Positions 5,497 to 59,912 of a stretch of 64,000 nt of DNA are shown here, piece after piece (the stretch's first letter is position 1; each line of letters begins with the position of its first letter). Source of the DNA: Octopus vulgaris (lineage: Eukaryota); NCBI GenBank assembly GCA_951406725.2, contig OX597832.1:1178001-1242000 (forward strand), written 5' to 3'. The position numbers were made by a program, and so were the translations under genes. Under the pieces are notes generated by a model. That model made no database searches. It was not told where the DNA came from and saw only the letters and a program-made list of their open reading frames with translations.

Positions 5497-5539
5497 GCTA
5501 CAGACATGTTTCAGGGTTGTTGCCCCTTATCAATGCAGC
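5497..5539 (-). ncRNA. Minimal type I hammerhead ribozyme motif (degenerate core)
   Basis: GCTGCA-TTGATAA-GGGGCAACAACCCT-GAAACATGTC-TGTAGC. Stems I and II pair and stem III is the palindromic ACATGT. The core has two changes from CUGAUGA. Confidence 0.7.
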
Positions 5540-7379
5540 GTAGTCAGACTTGCTGGTGTCGCTACTGATCGTTCCAGTAAATTCTTTGATGCGCAGGTGT
5601 AGTTATATATTATGACAAAAGTGTGTCCCGACTGGAATTTGTATATTGTTCCTTCAACGAGGCGGCTGCAAGTCCTGCAGTTGGAACGACCACATTTTTT
5701 TATGGTGGGTGGTGGGCTTGTGTTGGGTAATTTTGCATTGGGGAGTAGGTCTTTTAGGGATTTGGGTTGTCTTTTGCTTTTTATTATTTTATGGGTTGCG
5801 AGCACTTTTTTAGACGTGGGTCTTGATTCAGCTGTGGGATGTTCTTGAATATAATTGTGTAAGCTTCTGCATTTCTTGGATTGTGTGTTGAGAGATAGGG
5901 GAGACTATTTACTGTACCGTGAGTGTGTTTCAATTTTCGTAAGTCTTGGGTACATAGTAATTGTCTTGGTCTGTTCTATTCCATTGTCAACTAATGATGC
6001 TGGGTAATGTCTTTTGAGAAGAATTGCCTTTAGTTCTTGGAGTCTTTTATTTCGTGTTCTATAATTTGAGACAGTAGTACAGATTCTTCTCGTTAGGTTG
6101 AAGGGGATGTTTGTCTTCGTGTACTTTGAGTGATTGGACGTGAACAGAAGGTATTGTTTGGAATCAGTTGGTTTTAGTACCCATTGCAGTCCCTGATACC
6201 TGTCTGTAGGCGTTATTATTAAAATTCAAAAAGTTGTTTTGGAGAATAAACTTATGGCCCTCGATGATGAATTCTTTTTTACCCTTTCCGGGACTTCATT
6301 GGGGTATTTTTCTAGCCAGAATTTTATGGCCTCCAGTCCATATTCATGTGGGATCATAGTGTAAAGGTTTATTACATGAAAGGAGATAATTAAAATGTTT
6401 TCATTGGTATGTTTGGGGAGACGATTTAATAGGTCCGGGTCATCTCTTACAATACTTGGTATGTGTTTAAGTATTGATTTTAAGAGGATATCGATAAAGT
6501 TGCTTAATCTGTGTGTTTCACAGTTTGGGCCTGCCACAATTGGTCTCAGTTTGAAATCAGTGGGATGTGGCACAGTAATGCAGGTTGAAGTAGACTTTTT
6601 GCAAGCTTCGGTAATAATTTTGCTCTTGTGGATTTTTGTAAGCCTGTAGAGGATGTTGGTTTTGCAGTTAAAGTTTGTTATGTAGCTGCATTCCATTGCT
6701 GTTAAGTTATTTTGATGTTGGCAAATGAGTGTGCTTAATTTGGTCATTGTTTTTGATTGTTTGTAGTTGACTACTCTTTCATAGTAGGTAGTATCTTGTA
6801 AAAGGTGAAATACAGAGTTTTTGTATTGTTCAGTATCCGTAATGACGACAGTACTACCCTTATCTGCTTCCTTGATTGTGAAGTCATGATTGTTTCGTAA
6901 CTTATAGATGATTTCCCATTCCCTTTTACTGTTGTTGGGTTTGGTTGCGGAAGTTCACTATAAGGAAAGTTTCAAATGTAGTCACAAAATTTGTCCGAAG
7001 TTTTGTTTCTGCCTTTTGTGGGATTATAACTGCTTTTGTTATGAACCATTGTTTCGTCGTTATTGATTTCTTTGTCAAAAAATTCCTCTGTGAGGCGTAA
7101 TTTTCTGCAAAAGTGTGAGACATCATCCTGTATTTTACTCAGGTTAGGGTATTGTGGAGTTGGAGTGAATTTTAGTCCTTTTGAAAGGATTCTGATTTGT
7201 TGGGTCGACAGGTTTAGGTTTGAGAGATTCACTATTTTTGGTTTTTCAAGGTTGGTATTTACTATCTGGTGTCGTGGATCCTGTTGCCCTGGTCTAAAAA
7301 ATGATTTCTGGGGATTCTTCTGTCTGCGGTATTTTGGTGTGTGTTAGTCTTTCCCCCATTGATGTGTTGCCTACTAAAG

Positions 7380-15109: not shown

Positions 15110-17966
15110 GGGAAGACCGGGGTAAGTTGACACATTTTCTCTAGAGAAAATGCGAAACTACTTTCGGACGGTTTAATGACATCATAGTAGTGCTGTTAGT
15201 ATAAGCTTCCCCTCATTTGATTTTGTTGCCGTTGTGAGAGTTTGTCTGCTACATGTGGACAACATTGGAATTTTCCACTTGGTAAGTTATTTTTGACATT
15301 TTTGATAATTAGTTATTTTGGATATTAAGACTGCATTATGTGTATTAAACCATAAGGAGTTAGTAAAATATCACGATCCTACACAAATGGATTCTTGTGA
15401 AACCCTAGTGGTTTTTTTCTCAGTGTTTACATTTTTGAGGGAAATGGGGTCGGGGCAAGTTGACACATGTAAACAGGGGCACGTTGACACAGTGTGTCAA
15501 CTTGCCCCGGCTTGTGATAAAGTTGTAGGTTGCTTACATTGATTCACAGACTGTATCTATCCTATTTTAACTAAGAGTGTTTGCTATTTGATTCATGTCT
15601 GGTACAGTGGATCAATTCATTGAGTAATTTATGTATTGCTTGCTATAGTTTTAGATCAGCTATCTTTATCTATACCAACTTATTCTAACTTCATACTGCT
15701 ACCTACTTAGTCAGCAGCTTGTATACTGCCTCAGCTTTGTAACCTGTACCACTGATATATAAGCATAAAGTTATGCCATGACCAGGCATGCTTGAAACTA
15801 AAAAGTAGGTAAACACTCAGAGCTTCGTTTTGCTTCCACAGTTGGATTATGCAATGAGCTAAATTGCATTTTTTTCTTCATCTCTCTCTCTCTTTACAGA
15901 ACTAGATCAACAATTGTCATGGTGCGACACTATAACCGCGAAAGCGAGAGGGCAACCCTTCCACAGGATGTAATCCAACAGGCTATTCAACAGATCCGAG
16001 CTCGTGTCATCTCCTTGCGGGAAGCTTCGAGGACATTTGGCATCCCTTTAAAATCTCTGTCTCGCTACTGCACTAAGGCCGCTGAAGCAAACAACAATGA
16101 TCACAGTCTTAGTGGATACAAAAAGCCACAGCAAGTTCTCACCGACGAGTTCGAGAATCAGTTAGAGGCTTATGTTTTGGCTGCCGCAGAAATTTACTAT
16201 GGGCTTGCTCCAAAGGATGTGCGGAAATTGGCTTTTCAGATGGCAAAGGCACATGGATGTAATATCCCTCCAACCTGGCATGAGACAGAAATAGCAGGCG
16301 AAGACTGGTTTTCAACGACAAGAATTTATCCATAAGAAGTCCACAGGCAACAAGCTTGGCACGAGCAACTAGTTTCAACAAGACAAATGTTACTATGTTT
16401 TTCAACCAACTTGCTGAGCTGATGCTTCAGTATAAATTTGATCCATTCAATATCTACAACATGGATGAAACTGGCATAACAACTGTGCTGTGCCCCGATA
16501 GAATTATTGCCAGAAAAGGAACAAAGCAAGTGGGAAAAATGACAAGTGCAGAGAGGGGAACTTTGGTCACATTGGCATGCTGTGTAAATGCTGCTGGAAA
16601 CAGCATATCACCGTTTTTTGGAAGAACTTTAGGCCACATTTCCTGAACAATGGACCATCAGGCAGCAATGAAGGTGCTAATCCATCTGGTTGGATGTGTG
16701 AGGAGCAGTTTGTGAAATTCCTTCAACACTTTGTGAGGAATGTGAAATGTTCAAAGCAGTCAACGTGCCTTCTCTTGCTGGACAATCACAATTCCTACCT
16801 TAGTATTGAAGGGCTGACTTATGCATCAGAAAATGGCATCACTATGCTCTCTTTCCTACCTCACTGCACACATAGGTTACAGCCGTTGGACAAAGCGGTC
16901 TATGGACCTCTGAAGAAGTACACAAACACTGCCATTGATGACTGGCATATCAACCATTCTGGCCAGACCATGACCATTTATGACGTTCTGTGAATTGTCA
17001 AAACTGCATGGCCACTGACTGCAACTCCAACGAACATTCTTAGTGGCTTTTCTTCTACAGGAATATGCCCTTTTAATCGCAACATTTTCAGAGACAGCAA
17101 CTTTACACCAAGCTATGTCACTGACCGACCGGATCCTGCACTTTCAGCACCTGGGCCTTCAGCACCTACAACACCTGGGCCTTCAAGCAACATAGCTGCC
17201 AGGTCTTTTCTTTCACCATTTCAAATCCATCCACTGCCCAAAGCAGGCCCTAGGAAAGAATCAACCAGAGGAAGAAAGAAACGTTGTTCTGAAATCCTCA
17301 CTGACTCGCCGGTTAAAAGAGCAATCATAGAAGAAAAGACAAAAAGTAAAAGTAAAAAGAAGGCAAACATTGATAAAGGAACGATAGGAAAGGGACTCAG
17401 TAAGGGCAGGTCAATGAAGGGAAAAGGTCCAACTGTTAAGAAAAAAGTTCAACTTCAAGAAAGTGATGCCTCTGATGAGGAAGAGTGCTATTGCTTAGTG
17501 TGCAGCAAGCCTTTTTCCAACAGCAAAGGAAGTGAAGTGTGATTTCAATGCTCTGATTGTAAAGGTTGGGCTCACGAGGCATGCACACCAGGTCTGACAA
17601 TATTCACATGCCCAAATTGTGACTCTGATGATGATTTGTAATGAAACCGTAATAAAGGCCCTTGATCAAACCAACAAGCTTATATCATGTGTTTCTGTCC
17701 ACTAACATGTATGTTCCAAGAAAATGCATTCATGTGTCAACATACCCCATTATGTGTCAACTTGCCCCAGTATCAGGGCAAGTTGACACATTTAAGTGGT
17801 CTTAGAAAATGCACAAAATATAAATCCAGACAATAAGCAGATGAGATCTCTAGCTTTGTAAGTCTTCTGCTATGGTTGATTTATGCGTGTAATACAAGAT
17901 GCAGTAGAATACATTGCTCTGTCAGTGAAAATGTAAAAAATGTAGTCAACTAACCCCGGTCTCCCC
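15110..17966 (+). mobile_element. pogo/Fot1-like DNA transposon with a C-terminal PHD finger
   Basis: TA TSD and TIRs GGGAAGACCGGGGTAAGTTGAC / GTCAACTAACCCCGGTCTCCCC, with subterminal CAAGTTGACACA repeats at both ends. Confidence 0.92.
15919..17641 (+). pseudogene. pogo-type transposase (HTH, DDE_1, PHD) with frameshifts and stops
   Basis: HTH ISLREASRTFGIP; catalytic motifs NIYNMDETG, LLLLDNH and LQPLDKAVYGPLK; C-terminal CLVC...QCSDCKGWAHEAC...CPNC. A polypyrimidine-AG acceptor ends at 15899, just before the ATG. Confidence 0.9.
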
Positions 17967-39020: not shown

Positions 39021-41336
39021 TTGGTACATTATTTATGCCATCATATGAGGGAAGCTCATCTATAGTGATAATTTACAAAAGACGAAGATGGGTGTGTAAA
39101 CAACAAACAGATGTATTAGTTTAATGCTCGGGAAGTGAGAAAGTCTTTTACGTTTTGAGCTTACACTCTTTGACAGAAAGGAACAAAGAAATAAACAAGG
39201 AAAGAAAATAGAAAAAGGTTTAGTGGCTAGCGATCTATCATCTAAAGTTTTGTGTGATGCTATCCCCAAAGAGCCTCATCATATGTGCTGGTTTTTACTT
39301 AGGATTTTGGTTTTATCTGAGAAAAGCAAAGCCCAGTCTGAATCTTTAAGGAAATGTATATTTGAAGTGAGCTTGCACTGAAGCAGGTTAGAGAACTTCT
39401 GGTATTTCAGTTTGAAGATGATGCCAGTAAATCTGCTTTGGAGGCTTTCAGTTCTTTGATTCTGGGAAGAAACCTTCCAGATTTGATGTTATAAAAAATG
39501 GAATCTGAGTGTGATGTTGTTTGGTCATAGGAGTAGGCTTTGCATTTCATGCATCTTATAAGGTCAATGAACTTCCCTCAGTGCATCCTTATGTCCAGCT
39601 TGTTTGATGACACAGGTATGGTTTTGGTAGAATAACCAAGATCATATATTTCCATATCCATAAAGAGCATATAAAACAAGTCCTTTCATGACAATATATA
39701 GGTGCACAATCAGAGAGGCAGCTATAAAGCACAAACCATGTGATACACTCTGTAACAAGAGAAGTGTTGTCCATAAGTCAGAAAAAACACATTCTAAAAG
39801 AGAATTTGAGCAGTTATATTTTTATATTGTTGAATAGTATATTCTTGATTATGGCATATAAATAAATGATCAGAGAATTACCATTGGTCTTGCATCTGCT
39901 ATTGCACTTGGCAATACTGATGAGTCTTCAGACATTCTGGCTGGAACACATAACCTTTTAATGCTGGAGGTAATTATACAGTCTTGGTTTGGTTTAGTGG
40001 TGATAAAAAAAGTGAAATGGAAAAGAAAACTTTCTGGGAGGGGAAGAAGACTTGCCTCCTATTGTATGATTAAAGTCATAGACATGTTTTCTGTTCTTTA
40101 GTCCAAAAAAAGGGGGATACCACATATCAAATGAATTTTCTATTATGAGAAGTAAATTCAAGGTTGTATTGTCAAATGCAATAACAGACAAAACCAATGG
40201 TAACTTTCTTACTGGTTATAAACTTTAACCAAGAATATACTACTCAACAATATATGACCATTCAAATTCTCTTTTAGAGTATGCTTTTTTCCTGACTTAT
40301 GGACAACTGATTGATTACATACACACACACACATCTATCTACTCACACATATTCATACAGATTTATATATGAGTATACATGCTTACATTCATACACACAT
40401 ATGGGCATATCCCTTGTACGTTTTTACACCTATCAGTTTCTATATACACAAATACATATATCTGTCCATACATGTAAATAGAAACATACTTGTGCATTCT
40501 TATTTACATGTGCAACCATATAGATGGGCATGTATACAGCAATATTTTCACATATATATATTATATATATATAAGTATCAGTACATCTAACTATACATGC
40601 AAATCAAATATGGAAGAAGAATTATAAATGTAAAATTTAATTTATGAGACAATCATTTGAAAATCGTCTCGACTTTATTAATCAAGTGAAGTTAAGACTT
40701 GACTTGTCTAATCCTATTTATTTTCTCTTCCTCATTCTCAAATCTCTTATGAACTAAGTGTTGTTGGTGTAGCCTATTAGCAGTTTCCAGATTTTACTCT
40801 GAAATGGTCCTTCATGCATTTGTAAGGAAAGAAATTATTAAGATATGCTATTCTCTTTTACTTGCTTCAGTCATTTGACTGTGGCCATGCCAGAGTACCA
40901 CCTTTAGTTGAACGAATTGACCCCAGGCTTATTCTTTGTAAGCCTAGTACTTATTCTATCGGTCTCTTTTACTGAACCACTAAGTTATGGGGATGTAAAC
41001 ACACCAACATCAGTTGTCAAGCGATGGTGGGGGGACAAACACAGATACACAAACATATTTATATATATATATAATTAAAGTCAAAATGAGGGTGAAAAAA
41101 TTGGATATTAATTTAATAACATCAATTTAAACACCAGTGGCCTAGCGTATAAAAGACTGAGATTCAGTAAATATTATTAATACACAACTATGAGAGAATC
41201 CACTATATGGATGCTCTTACGCTAGATATAGATCTGCAAAGGGACTCAACCACTAAGAATTGTTCTCAAGAAATAATTCAACACACCAAGAATGTAAGCG
41301 AGCAGGACAAATGAAAAATAACGAAAATAAAGATTA

Positions 41337-41412
41337 ACCCCATAAAATTGTTTCACCGTTAATAAATTATGTAATATTACTTACATAAATATCCTCGGAT
41401 CATCAGTGGAGT
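41337..41412 (-). ncRNA. Type I hammerhead motif with a long stem II
   Basis: ACTCCA-CTGATGA-(stem II)-GAAACAATTTTA-TGGGGT. Stem III carries a G-to-T change relative to the sister copy. Confidence 0.7.
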
Positions 41413-41941
41413 ACGTCATGAAAAATATAATTTGTCGAACTGCACGCCATATAAATTAATATGTTCTCAAACTGGCGTAAACTACTGCAGTAAATTACTT
41501 ATGCAGTATTTATTTCCGGGAATTTAGCTCGCCAGAACGAGGGCATTTGAATGTAACTGTGAATATAATCGGCCGAACTGTTCGTCTCTCTGACCTCATG
41601 TTAATATTGGCATGCAGTTCAACAAATTATATTTTTTATGTAATACTATTTACTGAATCTCAGTTTTTTTATATGCTAGACCACCGGTGTTCAAATTGAT
41701 GATATCAAATTAATATCCAATTTTTCACCCTTATTTTAATTTTAATTTTAAATTAATACATTCTCAAACCAGCAAAGGCTACTGCAGTGAATTATTTTAT
41801 GCAGTATAATTTCTGGTAATTTAGCATGCCTAAATGAAAACTTTTGAAAAGTAACCACAAATGTAATGGGTAGAACTGCATGCATTTTTGACCTCATGTT
41901 GATGTCTGCCGTGTAGTTCTACGAATTATATTCGTGTAGAC

Positions 41942-42020
41942 GATCATACTGAAGATCTACAGATAAATTATGTAAGTAAAATTACGTAATTTGTTGATAG
42001 TGAAACAATTGTTTGTGATT
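41942..42020 (+). ncRNA. Type I hammerhead motif with a long stem II
   Basis: GATCATA-CTGAAGA-(46-nt hairpin)-GAAACAATTGTT-TGTGATT, with palindromic stem III ACAATTGT. Confidence 0.8.
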
Positions 42021-42678
42021 AATCTATATTTTTGTTATTTTTCATTTGTCTTGCTCACTTACGTTTCTGGTGTTTGCTAAAATTTTCTAGAGAACAATTC
42101 TTAGTGGTTAAGACCATAGCAGATCTTCTTCTAGCATAAGGGTTTCCACATAGTGGTAAAATTCCCTCTTATATTTATGTATGTAATACTATTTACTGAA
42201 TCTCAGTTTTTTTATATGCTAGACCACTGGTGTTAAAATTGATGTTATGAAATTAATATCCAATTTTTCACCCTCATTTTAATTTTAATATATATATATA
42301 TATACACGAAGGGCTTCTTTCAATTTCTGTCTAACAAATCCACTCACAAGGTTTTGGTCAGCCCAAGGCTATAGTAGAAGACACTTGCTCAAGTTGCCAT
42401 GCAGTGGAACTGAACCCGGAATTGTGTGGTTAGGAAGCAAGCTTCTTACCACAGCCATGCCTGTTTAGCATTTAATATTTTTATCAATGCAATCTTCTGC
42501 GTTATTATCAAAAGATTACTTTTGGCTTTTAAACTTTTATATTGTAGAAATAAATTAGTTCATAGCATGTAGATAACAGCAATATTTGGCAGCTGTCATA
42601 CAGCTACAGGTAAGCCTTAAAGGAAGAGAAAGCTGATGGTTCTCTTCAAATAAAACATGTTAAGGCCATAAAACTTAC

Positions 42679-42900
42679 ATATATCCCATTGTTTGGCACA
42701 AATGTAGCAACCGGCAGCCATAGTGAAGACATCTCGGTCCCAATCAAAATCTTCAAGAGAACAGCTAGCACACTCAACACACTCAATGCCTTCATAACTT
42801 TTCTCTAGGTCTTGACCTGGTCTTGATAAAGAACTTCCTGGAACACTGACTTGGAGATCCCATGTCCATTGAAATAAAGATGTAACACCATCATTCCATC
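42679..42900 (-). CDS. Host gene internal exon (linker plus start of the Ly6/uPAR domain)
   Basis: Acceptor ttttaaatttcag and donor gtaagt; 222 nt, phase 1-1. Translates GWNDGVTSLFQWTWDLQVSVPGSSLSRPGQDLEKSYEGIECVECASCSLEDFDWDRDVFTMAAGCYICAKQWDI. Confidence 0.9.
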
Positions 42901-43415
42901 CTGAAATTTAAAATGCATTAAATTTACAATGATTTCTTATAAAATGGTTTACAAGAAATATAAGCATTTTATATTCATGCCTTCCACAAATACATAAAAA
43001 TGAAATTCCTGAAAATATAGTGCAATTTCAAGGCAACAAATATAATGAGTAGATGTGGAAAGCAGTGATGGGGAGTAAACAAACTTAAGTTTAAGTTGAA
43101 GAGAACTAATGAGCTTGAAATGCATTCACCAGTCCAATTGAGTGTTCTGAGCAGACTATGGTGTTCTAACACTGCTTTGTCTCATGTGCAAATGTTTTCA
43201 ACACAACAAACTGCAGTGAAAAGCCTTTACAGGTTCAAATATTTCTCAGACATATTTGAATTGGCTTTAAGTTTGTTTACTCTCTATCACTGCTTCATGC
43301 ACCTACTCATGATAATATTAATAATAAAGTGATTGTTTCTTATCAGGAACAAAATGTTTAATAGGACTGCTATAGAAGTGCTCAATTAAATGAGACAAAT
43401 ATATTATTAAACTAT

Positions 43416-49016: not shown

Positions 49017-50327
49017 TCTATATATATAAAACTAAGAATGTATGTCTGTCTGTGTGAATCCCTAAAACTTGAGAACTACACAACCAATTTCATTTAAATT
49101 TTACACATTCCTTACTTAGGGTCCATGAAGTGTCATGGGCAAACATTTTTTAAACTTTTTGCCTAGTACAATCCCACAGCAATATCATATCTTCTCCACT
49201 ATTTCAGTATTACATGTCAAAAGTGAAACAAAAACATCTCTCTATTGTCATGTCACATGCTTTCACTTTAATACTGAAACTATTAAAGAGAAACTATCAT
49301 ACAACAGGGATGAATTGTAGCTGGACATGCTAGATAAAGATCCGCTATGGTCTTATATGCTACACCACTGGTTTTAAATTCATATTAATCAAATTAATAT
49401 TTAATTTTTCACCCTTATTATTTTAAAATTAAATTTACATATATATATATATATATATAGATGTATACATATAGCTGTATATATATATATATATGTATAT
49501 AGATATAGATGTATATGTATAGCTGTATATGTATACATGTATATATATAGATGCATTTCTATAGATATAGATGTATATGTATACGTGTGTAGATGTATAT
49601 ATAGATGTACAGGTAATATGTATACATATATATACACATATATACATGCATACATATATACACTCATACAAACACACACCCACACATACATAGGTGCAGC
49701 TGTGGCTGTGTGGTAATAAACTTAGTTCCAAAACACATGGTCCTGAGTTCAGTCCCACTGTGTGGTAACTTGGCATGTGTCTTCTGCTATAACCTCAGAC
49801 CAACCAAAGCCTTGTCAGTGGATTTTGTAGACAGAAACTGAAACAAATCAATCGTATATATATGTATGTATATATGTAAGTCTATGTGTGTGTCTTTGTG
49901 TTTCTCCCTCATCACTGCTTCACAACTGGTGTTTGTTTATTTACATCCCCATAACTTACTGGTTTCACAAGAAGAAACTGATAGAATAAGTACCAGGCTT
50001 ATCAAAATAAAAAAAGCATTAGGCAGTGTCTCATATTATTGTTTGCCCACTCAGTTGTATCTATCAATTTATATATGGATTTCGTAGACAGGAACTGAAA
50101 CAAATCAATCGTATATATATGTATGTATATATGTAAGTGTATGTGTGTGTCTTTGTCTCTGTGTTTCGCCCTCATCACTGCTTCACAACTGCTGTTCATT
50201 TATTTACATCCCCATAACTTACTGGTTTCACAAGAAAAACTAATAGAATAAGTACCAGGCTTATCAACATAAAAAAAAGCAGTGTCTCATATTTTTGTTT
50301 GCCCACTCAGTTGTATCTATCAATTTT

Positions 50328-53374: not shown

Positions 53375-56300
53375 TGTGGGATGACGTCAGCAGCTGGGGA
53401 GCTGACCGGAACTTGGGGCTGACCGGAAGAGGAAGGGGCAGGAGTGACGCGGGCGCAAGCAGGAAAGGATTGGGACTTTTCGATCGAGGTAGTCAAAGGA
53501 GTCAGACGCGTCAGCACGTTGTTAAGGTAGAGGAGAAGCAGCTGCTATTTCTAGTGTTCGGATCGAGCTGTGTTGAAGGGTCCATTACCACTGAGTGGTC
53601 TCCGTTGAACGAAGAGAAGCTAGGTGTCCATATTTCGGCGCTCCATATAAGACGTCACCACGATGGCAGCGAAAATCAGGATCGCCAGCGACATTATCAG
53701 ATTCTTTAATGGTGAGGGCAATGTTGTGGCCTGGATTCGTAAAATCAGGCTGGTGGCAAGACTGCAAGGCATAAGCGATGTGGCAAGTCTTATGGTGCTG
53801 TATTTGGAAGGAAAGCAGATGGACGAGGAAGAACGTCTGAGCGAGGAGAAGATCGAGCAACGCCTGAGAGATGCTTACACCGAGTGTGAGTATACAGCTT
53901 TTGTTAAGCTGGGTACGATTAGATGGACGGGAGGACAGGTGAACGAATACGTGGCAGAAGTGCGAAGGTTAGCCACGCTGGCTGGTTTTACAGGAGAAGG
54001 GCTGGAGAGAGCAGTGCGACTGGCATTCGTAAATGGGTTTTCCGACGACGTAGGGATTCGCCTACAACAATTGCCCGGGAGTAAAAAGATGGTGCTGAGT
54101 GAACTTGTGACTCAAACCCGAGTGTTGTCGTGACACACTGGGCGGAAGGCGATAGTGATGGCAGTAACAGAGGTGCATAAAGACGGCCGGAGAAAGACGT
54201 GAAGAAGCCTACTGTGTAACGACAGCGGCCAGTCTCAGGTCAGTGTTTTAGATGTCAGGGGTCACACAGGGCGAGGGAGTGTACACAACCGGGGCCCGTT
54301 TGCTATCGATGCAGGCAGACAGAGCACATCGCCTGCGATTGCGACCAGGGAAACGACCATGGGGAAATTGCTGCCTCTCGAACTTTCCCCGCAAGTAGAG
54401 GCGATTTTGGAGATGCAGCCCTTAATTGATATCGGGGCCGAGGGGAAGACTTCAAGGCATTCATGGATACGGGTTGCACGACCACCCTTGTGACTTCAAG
54501 AGTGGCGAAGAAATGGATAGGGGCAAGTAGCGTCCGGGGAGTCGACGGCAGCGAAATCCGTTGCAAAGGCAACAGCAAGGTAGAGATAGTGGTGTGAGGC
54601 ATGACGCTAAGGCTGCAGGTAATTGTGGCTGAATGCGTGATAGATGGGGTTGATGTGGTGATGGGGATGGACGCCATTAACCGCCTCAGTGGCGTCAGTA
54701 TTGTGGGAGATGAGGTCACATTCGCCAGAGAGAGCAGAGCTCTGCGAGGGATTGCGCCGCTTACACCATCGAAGACAAAGATTTTCAGGCGGCGTTCGAT
54801 GGTCAGCGGTGGACAATAGAGTGGCAATGGAAAGACAAGCCCCCGATGCTGAAAAACAGCGTGAGCTGCTACCAGCATACCCTGAAAGGTCATGCCAGGG
54901 TCGAGTTTGAAGACAAGGTGGAGAGGTGGATTGAGGAAGGGGTCCTTGTCCCTTGGGAGGAGGAGGTAGTGGGCAGAGTGCTACCCCTGATGGTGGTGGT
55001 GCAGCCTACAAAGGGAAAAGTCAGACCGGTGCTGGACTTCAGGGAGCTAAACCAACATCATGTCACACGGGAGGTGAGGCGACGGAAGTTTGTGGCGAGA
55101 CGTTACGTGCGTGGAGACAGTCGATCAAGGCAGCGACGATTGTCGACTTGAAATCGGCATACTTGCAGCTCCGTGTAAGCGACAAACTGTGGCGATATCA
55201 GCTGGTGCGGTACAAAGGCTGGACGTACTGTTTAACCAGGCTGGGTTGCAGACTGAATTCCGTTCCGAAGATCATGGCGGCAGTGCTTAAGTCCGTCCTA
55301 GGGAAAGACGGCAAGATTAGAAAGGCCACCAGTTCCTACATAGATAACATTTTGGTGGACGAAACTGTAGTGCCAGCCAACGAGGTAGTTAGACATCTGG
55401 AGAAGTTCGGACTTATTGTGAAGCCACCAGAGTCGATGGAAGGGGGAGCTGCACTGGGGCTGAAGCTGCAAAGAGATAGATTGGGTGAGTTGGTGTTCTG
55501 GAGAGGGAATGAAATCCCAGAGCTGAGTTCCAGTGTCAGCAGGAGAGAGCTGTTCTCGGTGCGTGGGATGTTGGTCGGTCACTACCTGATCGCTAGATGG
55601 CTGTGCACAGCGTGCAGTTACACCAAGAGATGAGCAGAGGAGGAGAGTTGGGGCGAGAAGGTGGGAGAAGGGACGGTGGTGATGATGCAGGAAATCCTAG
55701 AGAGGACGAAAGCGGAAGACTCGCTCAGGGGGAACTGGTATGTGCCCAAGACGGAATGCGGGACCGTCTGGTGTGATGCTAGCAGTATAGCAATAGGGGT
55801 TGCGTTGGCGATCGAAGGCGTTTCGGAAAGCAGATGACTTCAACCACATCAATGTTGCCGAATTAGATGCGGTGCTAAACGGGGTGAACTTGGCCCTGAA
55901 ATGGGGGCTTCACTGTGCTTGGCTGGGTAAGATCGGTGATCACCTGTGAAAGGAGAGTTCGGACTGAAGCTGAACGTGGTTTTCGTGCCTTCGGAGAAAA
56001 ACAGGGTGGACGCACTGACCAGGGTGAAAAGGGCGTGGTTGGAGGAGCCGGAGGAGGCTCGGAAAGGGATAGCTGTGGCATGTCGGTTGGATGACTCTGA
56101 ACTGAAGAGACAGCATGCTATGCATCACTCTGGTGAAGAAAATTGATGCTGATGTCACTAGGAGAAGCATCCGGAAAGTGGTCGAGAGATGCGACAGGTG
56201 TCATGCGGGCATGAGCAAGGAAATCTTTCGGTGGAGCACAACTGGAAAAGGCTAGCTGTGGATATGACGCACTACCGTCAGGGAATGTATCTCTCCACGG

Positions 56301-57298
56301 TCGACTGCGGGCCGGCTGGCCATTTGGAGGGAGTTGAGAACGAGTAATGCTGATGAGATTGCGCAGATTTTGAATGGGATATTTTTAGAGAGAGGTCCCA
56401 TGGAAGAACTGCTAATGGACAACGGGGCGGCATTTCATTCGGAAGCATTGAGGGATATCCTCGACCGGTGGAAAGTGCGTCGCTTGTTCAGAGCAGCATA
56501 TAGGCCGAGCGGTAACGGGATCATAGAGAGGCACCATCGAACAGTCAAGACCATAGCAGAAAGAGGACACATTTCGCCGCTGGAAGCAGTTTTTTGGTAC
56601 AACTTGTCTCCCCGATCTGGACAAGCTGAAGAATCTGTGCCGCAGAGAGCTGTATTTAAATATGAATGGAGGCACCCGAGTAAAGCACCGGAGGGCCACG
56701 AGGAAGAGAAGGGACCTGCTTGCGTGAAAATAGGGGAGGAAGTCTGGGTTAAGCCACTGAAGGCGCACTGTACATCTCAATGGAACAGAGGAACGGTGAC
56801 GGCGGTCAATTCCAGAAACAATGTCTCCATGGATGGAATGCCGCGACATGTCTTGGACCTACGCAGGATTGTCGCTTCATCGGAAGACGATTATGGGGAG
56901 GGGGAGAACGAGGTGCCTAGCCTGAGAAGATCTCAACGCGCAAGGCGCTCTCCCAGTTGGATGGTGGACTACGACGTGGAGTAGAGAGATTGTGATCTTT
57001 AAGATCAGGGTGGCGTGTGGGATGATGTCAGCAGCTGGGGAGCTGACCAGAACTTGGGGCTGACTGGAAGAGGAAGGAGCAGGAGTGACGTGCGCGCAGG
57101 CAGGGCAGGATTGGGCCTTTTCGATTGAGGTAGCCGAAGGAGTCAGACGTGTGAGCACGTTGTTATGGTAGGGGAGAAGCAGCTGCTATTTCTAGTGTTC
57201 GGGTCAGGCTGCGTTGAAGGGTCCATTACCACTGAGCGATCTCCGTCAAGTGAAGAGAACGTAGGTGTTCTTATTTCGAATCTCTCGTATACACCACA
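53375..57298 (+). mobile_element. Compact Ty3/Gypsy element (family B), degenerate
   Basis: LTRs at 53375-53662 and 57016-57298; flanks ctgac/atgac; PBS TGGCAGCG. Contains gag with CCHC remnants, protease FMDTGCT, RT (VDLKSAYLQ, YIDN), RNase H (WCDAS) and IN (MDNG...NGIIER). Confidence 0.93.
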
Positions 57299-57657
57299 AT
57301 GACAACTTCTTGTAACAAAGTCCACATAATGTAGAATGCACATGTATTTATACAATGTAACCATTGGCAATCGGTCACTCTAATATTATTGCTTCTCTAA
57401 TAAATGGAGGGAGAAAAACAAAGAAAAATGAATGGGTTATTTCCTTTTGGCCGTTAAAGGAAAATAGGTCGGTTACATCTGGACCCCTTCTAGGGGCCCT
57501 AGCCATCCAATTATAAATTTTTACTAAACTACAATGAGCCTAGTAGCAAACTGGATGTAGGTTTAACATGTATAAAAAGTTTCATGAAGATTCGTTAATG
57601 GGTGTAGATGGCAACTTGACACTAACAGACAACCAAACAAATTGCCATTTATGTGTG

Positions 57658-57723
<66 letters not shown>

Positions 57724-57786
57724 AATATATAAAATTGAATAATTTAGGGTCAACAGGAAGGAATCCAGTTTGACAGTTATTTTTTA

Positions 57787-57892
57787 ATCATGACAAATGT
57801 TTCCACACAACATAGTTCTTCATACATACAGGTATTTGATTATGCTACTGTTTACCTGTATAATGGGATCTAGTTGTATTTCTTCAGATGAT
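57787..57892 (-). ncRNA. Type I hammerhead with an about 77-nt extended stem II
   Basis: ATCAT-CTGAAGA-(long hairpin)-GAAACATTTGTC-ATGAT. Confidence 0.8.
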
Positions 57893-58105
57893 ATTCAATT
57901 GCTGTCTCTGTTAGTAAAAAGCCTCTGACTTCGATGCTAGCACATCCATCTACTTTGTTTGAATTTACTACTCATGGCAGGCACGTTGAAGCACATTAAC
58001 AGCAACCAGAATGAAACTGCCAGCATCTACTAAATTCAAACAAGGCAGATGGATGTGCTAGCATCAAAGTCAGAGGTTTTTTACTAACAGAGACAGCAAT
58101 TGAAT

Positions 58106-58211
58106 ATCACCTGAAGAAATACAAATGGATCTCATTATACAGATAAACAGTTATATAATCAAAAACTTGGACATATGAAGAACTATGTTGTGTGGAAATA
58201 TTTGTCATGAT
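58106..58211 (+). ncRNA. Hammerhead copy (partly mutated)
   Basis: ATCAC-CTGAAGA...GAAATATTTGTC-ATGAT, with a mismatch in stem I and a wobble pair in stem III. Confidence 0.65.
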
Positions 58212-58682
58212 TAAAAAATAACTGTCAAACTGGATTCCTTCCTGTTGTCCCTAAATTATTCAATTTTATTTTCACACGACGAATGCCAAAATCTAGATTT
58301 GGAAGTATATCATAATACTACCAGCTATCTGGTAATTCTAAGGGTGAACAAGCTCTATACTGTACTCTGCTATGTTCCTAATGGAATACACCTTAAATAA
58401 CACTGACAAAAACTAGAAGTCGCTTTTTTTTGAATCAGAGTACTACAAAGGGTCAAAGGATGGAAAAACTAAATCTAGACTTCTCACTAAAGGACATCTC
58501 CATTCCAACTAAAAATGAATATTTCAGATAATAAAATTTCACATGTGCAGCCCAACATAAGGAACAGATCAAAAATTAACAGCATGCAGAATGAAACTGC
58601 CAGCATCTACTAAATTCAAACAAAGCAGATGAATATGCTAGCATTAAAGTTGGAAGTTTTTTTACAGAGACAGCAATTGAAT

Positions 58683-58788
58683 ATCATCTGAAGAAATACA
58701 AATGGATCCCATTATACAGGTAAACAGTAGCATAATCAAATACCTGTATGTATGAAGAACTATGTTGTGCGGAAACATTTGTCATGAT
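58683..58788 (+). ncRNA. Type I hammerhead with an extended stem II
   Basis: ATCAT-CTGAAGA...GAAACATTTGTC-ATGAT; the GUC triplet ends at 58783. Confidence 0.8.
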
Positions 58789-58958
58789 TAAAAAATAACT
58801 GCCCAACCGAATTCCTTCCTATTGACTCTAACTTATTCAATTTTATGACGAATGCCAAAATCTAGACTTGGAAGTATATCATAATACTACCAGCTATTTG
58901 GTAATTCTAAGGGTGAATGAGCTCTACACTGTACTCTGCTACGTCCCTAACAAAATAA

Positions 58959-59025
<67 letters not shown>

Positions 59026-59109: not shown

Positions 59110-59912
59110 TTAATAATGAGCAACTGGTAAAGCTTAGGTACACAAATTGCAACAATGTTTGGGTACCACATGAGTTGAGTGAGAAGAACCTTTTGGATTG
59201 CATTTCCATCTGTGATTCGCTTTATAAATGGAATGAAAACATGCCTTTTTTAAAGCAAATTGTGAGAGGTGACGAGAAATGGATTATCTACCGAAATGTT
59301 CAGTGAAAGCGATCCTGGAGTAAGCGACATGAGCCACCCTTAGCCACTCCAAAAGCAGGTCTTCACCCTAAAAAAAGTCTTGCTTTGTGTCTGGTGGGAT
59401 TGGAAAGGAATTCTGTACTATGAGCTTCTCCCAAGTAACCAGACAATTAATTCTGAGAAATACTGCACACAACTGGACGAGTTAAAAGCAGCAATTCAAG
59501 AGAAATGTCCAGAATTGGCCAACAGGAGGAGTGTTGTTATCCAACATGATAATGCAAGATCGCACATTTCTTTGGGAACCAGACAAAAATTGCTGCAGCT
59601 CAGCTGGGATGTGTTACCCCACCCTCCATATTCACCAGATATTCCTCCTTCGGATTTCCACTTATTCAGGTCTCTGCAGAATAGTCTTAATGGTAAAAAT
59701 TTCAATTCCTTGGATGACGTAAAAAAATACCATGATGAATTCTTTGCCATGAAACCATCTCAATTCTGGGAAGAGGATATTTTCAAGTTAAAGGAAGGAT
59801 GGAGAATCATTGTGCAACAAAATGGTTCATATTTGGTTGATTAAAAATGTAATGGCAAGTATTTATTGACCATTTTCTTTCCTTTAAAAATCGGCACAAA
59901 CTTTCCGGACAT
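59110..59912 (+). mobile_element. Mariner fragment (3' two-thirds)
   Basis: Motifs WVPHELSE, GDEKWI, QHDNAR and HPPYSPDIPPSDFHLF. Confidence 0.92.

What the first reader, a model, noticed from the sequence alone, without database searches (positions are those of the whole stretch)
41075..42288. Second fold-back hammerhead element with compensatory stem changes
Seen: two diverged inverted arms each retain an HHR. Stem I differs in sequence yet still pairs in both (ACTCCA/TGGGGT vs GATCATA/TGTGATT), as does the stem II base (CCG/CGG vs CTA/TAG), which points to structure-level conservation. Stem III is the palindrome ACAATTGT, suited to the dimeric folding known for PLE hammerheads. The plus-strand unit has direct terminal repeats of about 105 bp (period about 543 nt) and no ORF. 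I see no sequence similarity to the 57.7-kb element beyond the core.
Basis: partly seen in the sequence, partly recalled or inferred. Interest (0 to 1): 0.7.

Follow-up and report, generated by a model that had tools for sequence, protein, structure and literature searches.

The report
Two-subfamily hammerhead retrozyme, Penelope-type insertion
This is an old, patched-together copy of a very common protein-free jumping repeat with a predicted self-cutting RNA motif, a known kind of element, whose young relatives show scars suggesting that a Penelope-type enzyme likely copies one small RNA circle from both cut DNA strands.

Summary
Both hammerhead motifs are real, but the arms are not one element's diverged repeats. 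The locus is a one-off fusion of two subfamilies (A and B, about 75% identical) of a 533-543-nt non-coding repeat. The junction is a 14-nt microhomology at 41627-41640. Across 72 copies from five subfamilies, 6 of 7 stem I pairs and 4 of 4 stem II base pairs change on both sides. The palindromic stem III is intact only in the plus arm. The two ribozymes lie on opposite strands, so they cannot dimerise with each other.

A 31-nt motif occurs 2,533 times in the genome (control 0). Young subfamily C forms head-to-head multimers in (TA)n; units within a locus share variants. In 47 of 49 fold-backs with two canonical ends, the arms end at two different fixed sites 108-130 nt apart. This fits a non-LTR retrozyme copied by a Penelope-like enzyme, probably from a circle. 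No autonomous partner was found, and cleavage and circularity are untested. The scan reported this pattern before, in hammerhead repeats of other unit lengths in this genome. Known kind, new family.

The parts
41060..41074 (.). (TA)n tract at the left outer end (target sequence)
   Evidence: sequence
41075..41449 (-). Subfamily B inverted arm (unit positions about 158-540); its 3' end is fixed site S2
   Evidence: 95% to nearest B copies, 80% to A
41337..41412 (-). Type I hammerhead of subfamily B: GUA-type site with cut position between 41343 and 41342; G16.2 replaced by U at 41345; U10.1-U11.1
   Evidence: same G-to-T in nearest relative L032
41450..41640 (+). Subfamily B direct arm (unit junction to about position 190), truncated just before its hammerhead
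   Evidence: 92-94% to B copies, 73% to A
41627..41640 (+). B-to-A fusion point, about 14-nt AT-rich microhomology, close to A's site S1
   Evidence: B hits cover 1-81 and A hits 68-141 of the query; only the window spans it among 40 scored candidates
41632..41746 (+).
   Evidence: 115 nt, 94% to 42175-42289
41750..42289 (+). Subfamily A full unit (period 543), non-coding, GC 30%; 3' end at S2
41942..42020 (+). Type I hammerhead of subfamily A: long stem II, U10.1-U11.1, palindromic stem III 42005-42012, GUU site with predicted cut after 42013
42175..42289 (+). Segment between fixed end S1 (about 42181) and fixed end S2 (about 42289)
   Evidence: end mapping of 104 loci
42290..42304 (.). (TA)n tract at the right outer end; no target-site duplication can be told inside TA
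   Evidence: sequence
42679..42901 (-). Host-gene exon (AG before, GTAAGT after); the element lies in the intron that follows it. Context, not part of the element
   Evidence: contigs of 4,748 and 4,883 nt lie on exactly this stretch with 0 differences; splice signals and open frame

Best explanation
The locus is a fused, aged copy of two subfamilies of a 533-543-nt non-coding hammerhead repeat, a non-LTR retrozyme that is likely copied in trans by a Penelope-like (GIY-YIG plus RT) enzyme. Likely cycle: (1) a tandem copy is transcribed (inferred; contigs of probable RNA runs cover subfamily C); (2) neighbouring hammerheads pair through the palindromic stem III and cut out a monomer (predicted); (3) the monomer is ligated to a circle (inferred from published retrozymes and from locus homogeneity); (4) the enzyme nicks both strands of a (TA)n tract and primes one strand at internal site S1 and the other at S2 of the same RNA, running round it several times (inferred; the S1/S2 ends, TA targets and shared variants are shown); (5) the two cDNAs join head to head (the architecture is shown). 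In this window a B fold-back and an A copy were joined at a microhomology, most likely by a second insertion with loss of the distal B arm. This locus is probably no source element: it has one sense hammerhead per strand, the arms sequester each other, and the B motif has lost a stem III pair.
For: Covariation over 72 copies: 89.6% of cells paired against 82.0 +/- 0.4 shuffled and 34-40% with slid partners; 185 cells with double-sided change against 51.8. 2,533 exact matches of a 31-nt motif, 0 for the reversed control. C copies are 97-100% identical, in dispersed multimers, one run of 13 motifs at about 534-nt spacing. 90 full units in 20 loci differ by 0.57 substitutions within and 3.94 between loci, 0 of 5,000 permutations as low; 12 haplotypes in 20 loci; locus-private fixed variants in 6 of 20, on both arms in 3. 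Of 104 loci, 61 are fold-backs and 49 have both ends at canonical sites: 47 are S1+S2, 2 are S2+S2 (this window and L051), 0 are S1+S1; 16 of 16 in the C set, p=3e-5. Ends lie far from the ribozyme cut site, as with internal RT initiation at two sites (PMC11167929). An intact 781-aa RT plus GIY-YIG Penelope-type family with 97-99.5% identical copies also ends in (TA)n, at two sites 40 nt apart. Circular folds are more stable than shuffles on the sense strand (z -6.2 A, -2.5 B, -5.7 C). Junction uniqueness.
Against: No autonomous PLE shares sequence with the unit (42 GIY-YIG loci examined; only 150 of 6,136 candidates were scored). No cleavage or circle was measured; contigs cannot tell a circle from a tandem transcript. 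In none of 6 motifs folded is the active fold the minimum-energy fold. A carries a GUU site and U.U at 10.1/11.1; 17 of 33 complete B cores have U4C, which lowers activity in vitro (PMC3088659). In Anolis PAc, ribozyme mutants still inserted in vitro (PMC11167929). 'Private' variants are private only among 20 sampled loci and may mark homogeneous master arrays. The covariation counts are not independent events, and the two pair-type measures did not beat shuffles clearly (36/500 and 53/500). The C minus strand folds as well as the plus strand (z -6.6). The A and B parts of the window cannot be dated apart.
Confidence: 0.78

Rival explanations
1. The family is a non-autonomous Penelope derivative copied from linear tandem transcripts by internal priming; the hammerhead is inherited from the pLTR and no circle is needed.
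For: In vitro, PAc uses uncut RNA and ribozyme mutants still insert (PMC11167929, main text read). Weakened cores spread in B and A. A and B copies are mostly 1-2 units long.
Against: Long arrays that are homogeneous for locus-specific variants on both arms need a monomer bottleneck or conversion. Stems I and II keep pairing through many changes across subfamilies 60-75% identical. The youngest subfamily has the most canonical core (G10.1-C11.1, GUC).
Confidence: 0.14
2. The window locus was made in one event, in which the RT switched from an A RNA to a B RNA at the microhomology. This concerns only how the fusion arose.
For: No TA tract at the junction; A and B parts show similar divergence (1.9-3.3% private substitutions); a second A/B fusion without TA exists in L032.
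Against: Both outer ends are S2, against the S1+S2 rule. Only about 30 nt of B's arms overlap, as expected after deletion in an inverted repeat. The junction is unique, and such fusions are rare (1 among the 56 other A/B loci).
Confidence: 0.3
3. The arms are the inverted pLTRs of one decayed autonomous PLE, and their ribozymes work together as a dimer.
For: Inverted plus partial-tandem layout is typical of PLE insertions (PMC8557442 and PMC3846280, passages).
Against: The arms belong to different subfamilies; they are on opposite strands; tblastn found only scattered PLE fragments, in flanks of 6 of 152 family loci (two of them duplicates of one place) and not in a consistent position.
Confidence: 0.04
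4. The repeat spreads as DNA (satellite or fold-back DNA transposon), with arrays made by unequal exchange.
For: Tandem units and inverted arms.
Against: Short dispersed arrays on many chromosomes, variable 5' truncation with fixed 3' ends, strand-polar RNA structure under covariation.
Confidence: 0.04

Closest known systems
Metazoan non-LTR retrozymes (PMC7229834; bioRxiv 10.64898/2026.07.22.740005)
   Same: Non-coding, low-GC tandem units with one type I hammerhead each; co-occur with PLEs. The motif resembles axolotl HHR_Amex2 (two-pair helix III with tetraloop, U.U at the base of helix II).
   Different: Unit 533-543 nt against 150-450 bp; long stem II (about 45 nt); head-to-head fold-backs with two fixed ends are not mentioned in the parts I read (0 hits for 'inverted' in PMC7229834); circles not shown here.
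EN+ Penelope-like elements and their insertion structure (PMC8557442, PMC3846280, PMC11167929)
   Same: 5' truncation, partial tandems, inverted 5' copy, a 'tail' at one end only, AT/(TA)n targets, hammerhead upstream of the two RT start sites.
   Different: No ORF; the tail is 108-130 nt against 30-40; multimers on both arms.
Minimal dimer-type PLE hammerheads (PMC4209133; variants in PMC3088659)
   Same: Type I, short palindromic stem III, long helix II, families rich in compensatory changes.
   Different: 10.1-11.1 is mismatched in 59 of 72 copies rather than G-C; U4C is common in B. No Rfam family matches.
Non-autonomous Chlamys elements such as MRC1 (PMC8557442, passage)
   Same: Non-coding PLE dependants with multicopy head-to-tail insertions.
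   Different: Those generally share 3' sequence with an autonomous partner; none was found here. The N-terminal-EN PLEs lack canonical hammerheads.

Membership tests
Type I hammerhead ribozyme | Core CUGANGA / GAAA / UH around three stems, open at stem I | tested here: met
   the window B copy keeps A15.1-U16.1 but lacks C15.2-G16.2
Type I hammerhead ribozyme | Stems supported by covariation | tested here: met
   stem I 6 of 7, stem II base 4 of 4 pairs with double-sided changes; stem III invariant, and partly selected for by my extraction pattern
Type I hammerhead ribozyme | Self-cleavage | not testable with these tools
   no assay; active fold is not the MFE in 6 of 6 motifs
Type I hammerhead ribozyme | Match to an Rfam hammerhead model | tested here: not met
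   no hammerhead family among 129 matches at E<=10
Non-LTR retrozyme | Non-coding tandem unit with one hammerhead per unit | tested here: met
   for the family; the window holds 1.2 A units with one sense motif
Non-LTR retrozyme | Two consecutive intact motifs at a locus ('active' criterion of the 2026 preprint) | tested here: not met
   not met at this locus; met at C loci and some B loci such as L033, L035, L044
Non-LTR retrozyme | Circular monomer RNA | tested here: inconclusive
   end-to-start joint in contigs of 4 of 4 runs; tandem and circle cannot be told apart
Non-LTR retrozyme | Unit of 150-450 bp | tested here: not met
   533-543 nt; a reported size range rather than a defining trait
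EN+ Penelope-like element (autonomous) | RT plus GIY-YIG ORF between pLTRs | tested here: not met
PLE-mobilised non-autonomous element | Partial tandem, inverted 5' copy, tail at one end, microsatellite target | tested here: met
PLE-mobilised non-autonomous element | Terminus shared with an autonomous PLE | tested here: inconclusive
   none in 42 GIY-YIG loci; the search scored 150 of 6,136 candidates

The most novel reading that the evidence does not exclude
A still-active viroid-sized (533-nt) circular RNA lineage in this animal is written into the genome by a dimeric Penelope enzyme that primes both strands of one cut from two fixed sites on the same circle and rolls round it. The lineage is ADAR-edited, and the enzyme can swap between circles of different subfamilies, as frozen in this window and in L032.
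Probability: 0.25. Interest if true: 0.7.

Novelty: new member of a known kind. Interest (0 to 1): 0.42.

Why it matters
How Penelope-like elements make their tandem and inverted insertions is described as open (PMC8557442), and their role in moving animal retrozymes has been argued from co-occurrence and phylogeny. This family gives a countable footprint (47 of 49 fold-backs with one end at each of two fixed sites; both arms sharing variants) and a short, young, natural template for an in vitro test. Five subfamilies also give a natural series of hammerhead variants (G-C, A-U, U.U, C.C and A.C at 10.1/11.1; GUC, GUA and GUU sites). The window copy itself is an ordinary aged fusion.

Tried and rejected
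Rfam: no match at gathering scores in the window, and no hammerhead family at E<=10 in 5 loci.

Autonomous partner: the GIY-YIG search, 42 loci and tblastn of three PLE proteins against 152 family loci gave no shared terminus. PLE fragments near L003, L024, L036, L037 and L043 are not consistently placed and are taken as separate insertions.

Intron idea: the GTAAGT at the stem II apex looks like a splice donor, but no joint from it was listed in the contigs. This is no proof of absence.

Sequencing runs: no RNA holder listed on record; all 14 RNA-labelled holders are guesses. Run X1 left most of the A unit and the exon uncovered, which says nothing.

Host selection against the intronic sense B ribozyme: rejected, because the nearest relative L032 carries the same G-to-T, so it probably predates this insertion.

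Host gene identity: no Pfam or PDB match for the exon; no Atlas result was obtained.

Dating A against B in the window: not separable.

Fixed RNA edits: A>G makes up 4 of 14 locus-fixed variants against 1 of 55 singletons (p=0.005), but polarity depends on the reference copy, so this is a hint only.

The extraction pattern missed 29 of 34 A copies; the count was redone by alignment column. Lunse et al. on dimeric PLE hammerheads could not be read; I saw only its citation. No supplements were read; their alignments could hold this motif. No covariance model was built and R-scape was not available.

Full report
1. The observation. The window holds a type I hammerhead on + at 41942-42020 and another on - at 41412-41337. 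A strict descriptor finds 3 such motifs in the window (the third at 57.9 kb) and none in 100 block shuffles. The 115-nt, 94% direct repeat with period 543 is there, and there is no ORF over 51 aa. Rfam has no match.

2. The locus is a fusion. The plus unit and the minus arm retrieve different sets of genomic copies (4,659 and 2,584 first-look candidates, 40 scored each). Of 57 distinct loci from these two searches, contiguous A/B mixtures occur only here and in L032; the other 'mixed' flags were separate insertions or near-ties between B and E. From left to right the window reads: (TA)n, B inverted arm, B direct arm, A partial tandem, A full unit, (TA)n. B and A overlap in about 14 nt at 41627-41640, and no other locus among 40 scored spans that junction. 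A and B are about 75% identical, and each is about 60% identical to a third subfamily, C. Private substitutions in the A unit and the two B parts are 1.9-3.3%, so the parts cannot be dated apart.

3. Covariation. A pattern search that fixed only the 3' half of the motif revealed subfamilies D and E, whose 5' stem I strands match their different 3' strands. I aligned 72 copies; copies lacking the 5' half or failing my extraction pattern, duplicates and most identical C copies were left out. In that alignment 89.6% of cells pair (shuffled 82.0; slid partners 34-40), and 185 cells change on both sides (shuffled 51.8). Six of 7 stem I pairs and 4 of 4 stem II base pairs vary on both sides. These are counts of related sequences, not of events, and the pair-type measures were reached by 36 and 53 of 500 shuffles. 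Position 10.1-11.1 is mismatched in 59 of 72. In the unfiltered set of 74, stem III is a perfect 8-nt palindrome in 11 of 34 A, 29 of 38 B and 2 of 2 C copies. Another 19 A copies keep a self-complementary form (ACATTGT, ACATTTGT, ACATGTGT, ACATGT). U.U at the base of stem II is known and tolerated (PMC3088659, passages; axolotl HHR_Amex2 in PMC7229834, parts 2-3 of 6 read).

4. The family. A 31-nt motif occurs 2,533 times (reversed control 0), mostly C among the first 100 listed. C copies are 97-100% identical and form dispersed multimers, usually head to head, with TA tracts on both sides. I took 20 multimeric C loci from the 40 scored candidates. Their 90 full units differ by 0.57 substitutions within and 3.94 between loci (0 of 5,000 permutations as low). 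There are 12 haplotypes; 6 loci have fixed variants not seen in the other 19, and in 3 of these both arms carry them.

5. The two ends. 3' ends fall at two fixed sites, S1 and S2, 108 nt (A) to 130 nt (C) apart and 170-280 nt beyond the ribozyme cut. Of 104 loci, 61 are fold-backs; 12 have one non-canonical end. Five C ends that BLAST over-extended into TA were reassigned to S1. Of the 49 remaining, 47 are S1+S2, 2 are S2+S2 (this window, and L051, whose short arm has no TA flank) and none is S1+S1. The A and B queries favour S2 ends; the C set does not and gives 16 of 16 (p=3e-5). A tail at only one end of PLE insertions is published (30-40 bp; PMC8557442 and PMC3846280, passages), as is RT initiation at two internal sites with cutting of both strands (PMC11167929, main text read).

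6. The enzyme. The genome has a young Penelope-type family with an intact 781-aa RT plus GIY-YIG frame. It also ends in (TA)n, at two sites 40 nt apart. It shares no sequence with A, B or C and has a different hammerhead (U3-A8). No partner was found in 42 GIY-YIG loci, a small sample of 6,136 candidates.

7. RNA. No run is on record as RNA. Contigs in X4 and X13 of 4.9 and 4.7 kb lie exactly on 42679-42901, which has splice signals on the minus strand. I infer that these runs hold spliced mRNA and that the element lies in an intron. All four runs cover the C unit and join its end to its start; in X1 it is a single self-closing contig with no loose ends. This fits a circle or a tandem transcript equally. 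Low-depth contigs in X4 and X13 carry A>G clusters at 15 sites, only 1 of which shows A>G in the genomic C copies checked; editing is likely but needs matched DNA.

8. At this locus. One strand carries only one sense ribozyme, and a read-through RNA is predicted to fold into about 290 long-range pairs that bury it. The host pre-mRNA would carry the B motif in sense, which lacks a stem III pair. The locus is therefore probably inert as a source, though it may form intronic double-stranded RNA (inference).

9. Comparison and novelty. It works like a metazoan non-LTR retrozyme with PLE-type insertion (PMC4209133, parts 1-2 of 4; bioRxiv 10.64898/2026.07.22.740005, part 1 of 5 and passages; PMC6765202, passages). 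It differs in unit size, tail length and stem II length. The repeat landscape looks like that of an octopus (recalled; earlier scan notes say cephalopod). Searches for 'retrozyme' with 'cephalopod' and for 'octopus' with 'hammerhead ribozyme' and 'Penelope' returned only PMC8557442. The scan had already noted the same two-site, fold-back pattern in repeats of 360, 485 and 490 nt in this genome, after I had seen it. Verdict: a new family of a known kind, with useful mechanistic footprints; interest 0.42.

Noticed in passing
window 5533-7300 (-): Broken Penelope-type element, 43-57% identical to the 781-aa protein, with a U3-A8 hammerhead at 5533.
   Followed up: partly
window 57729-58968: Unrelated or distantly related hammerhead fold-back. 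Its stem III is ACATTTGT, its tail is about 120 nt, and both its ends have CCCT 12-20 nt before the end, as S2 (and, loosely, S1) does here.
   Followed up: partly
window 49353-49455: Decayed fragment of the same family's tail segment, about 80% identical, ending in (TA)n.
   Followed up: no
window 42305-42465: Very abundant SINE-like repeat directly after the right TA tract, with huge depth in all four runs.
   Followed up: no
window 42679-42901 (-): 223-nt exon of an unidentified gene; 74-aa open frame with no Pfam or PDB match.
   Followed up: partly
L144 581-4281: The young PLE family has a 479-aa open frame upstream of and overlapping the 781-aa RT plus GIY-YIG frame, with a 138-nt internal repeat; no clear Pfam match.
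   Followed up: no
L032 1496-2178: Second A/B fusion: A's S2 end is joined without TA to a 5'-truncated B arm.
   Followed up: partly
L114, L118, L119: Further distinct hammerhead families with palindromic stem III (ACTCGAGT, ACACATGT, ACGATCGT) near GIY-YIG hits.
   Followed up: no
window 41975-41980 (+) and 42058-42063 (-): GTAAGT donor-like motifs, one at the conserved apex of stem II and one on the minus strand, the host pre-mRNA's sense; no use was seen in contigs.
   Followed up: partly
window 53600-57300, 59340-59840, 16280-17540: Open frames that look like LTR-retrotransposon, mariner-type and other transposase fragments (names recalled, not tested).
   Followed up: no
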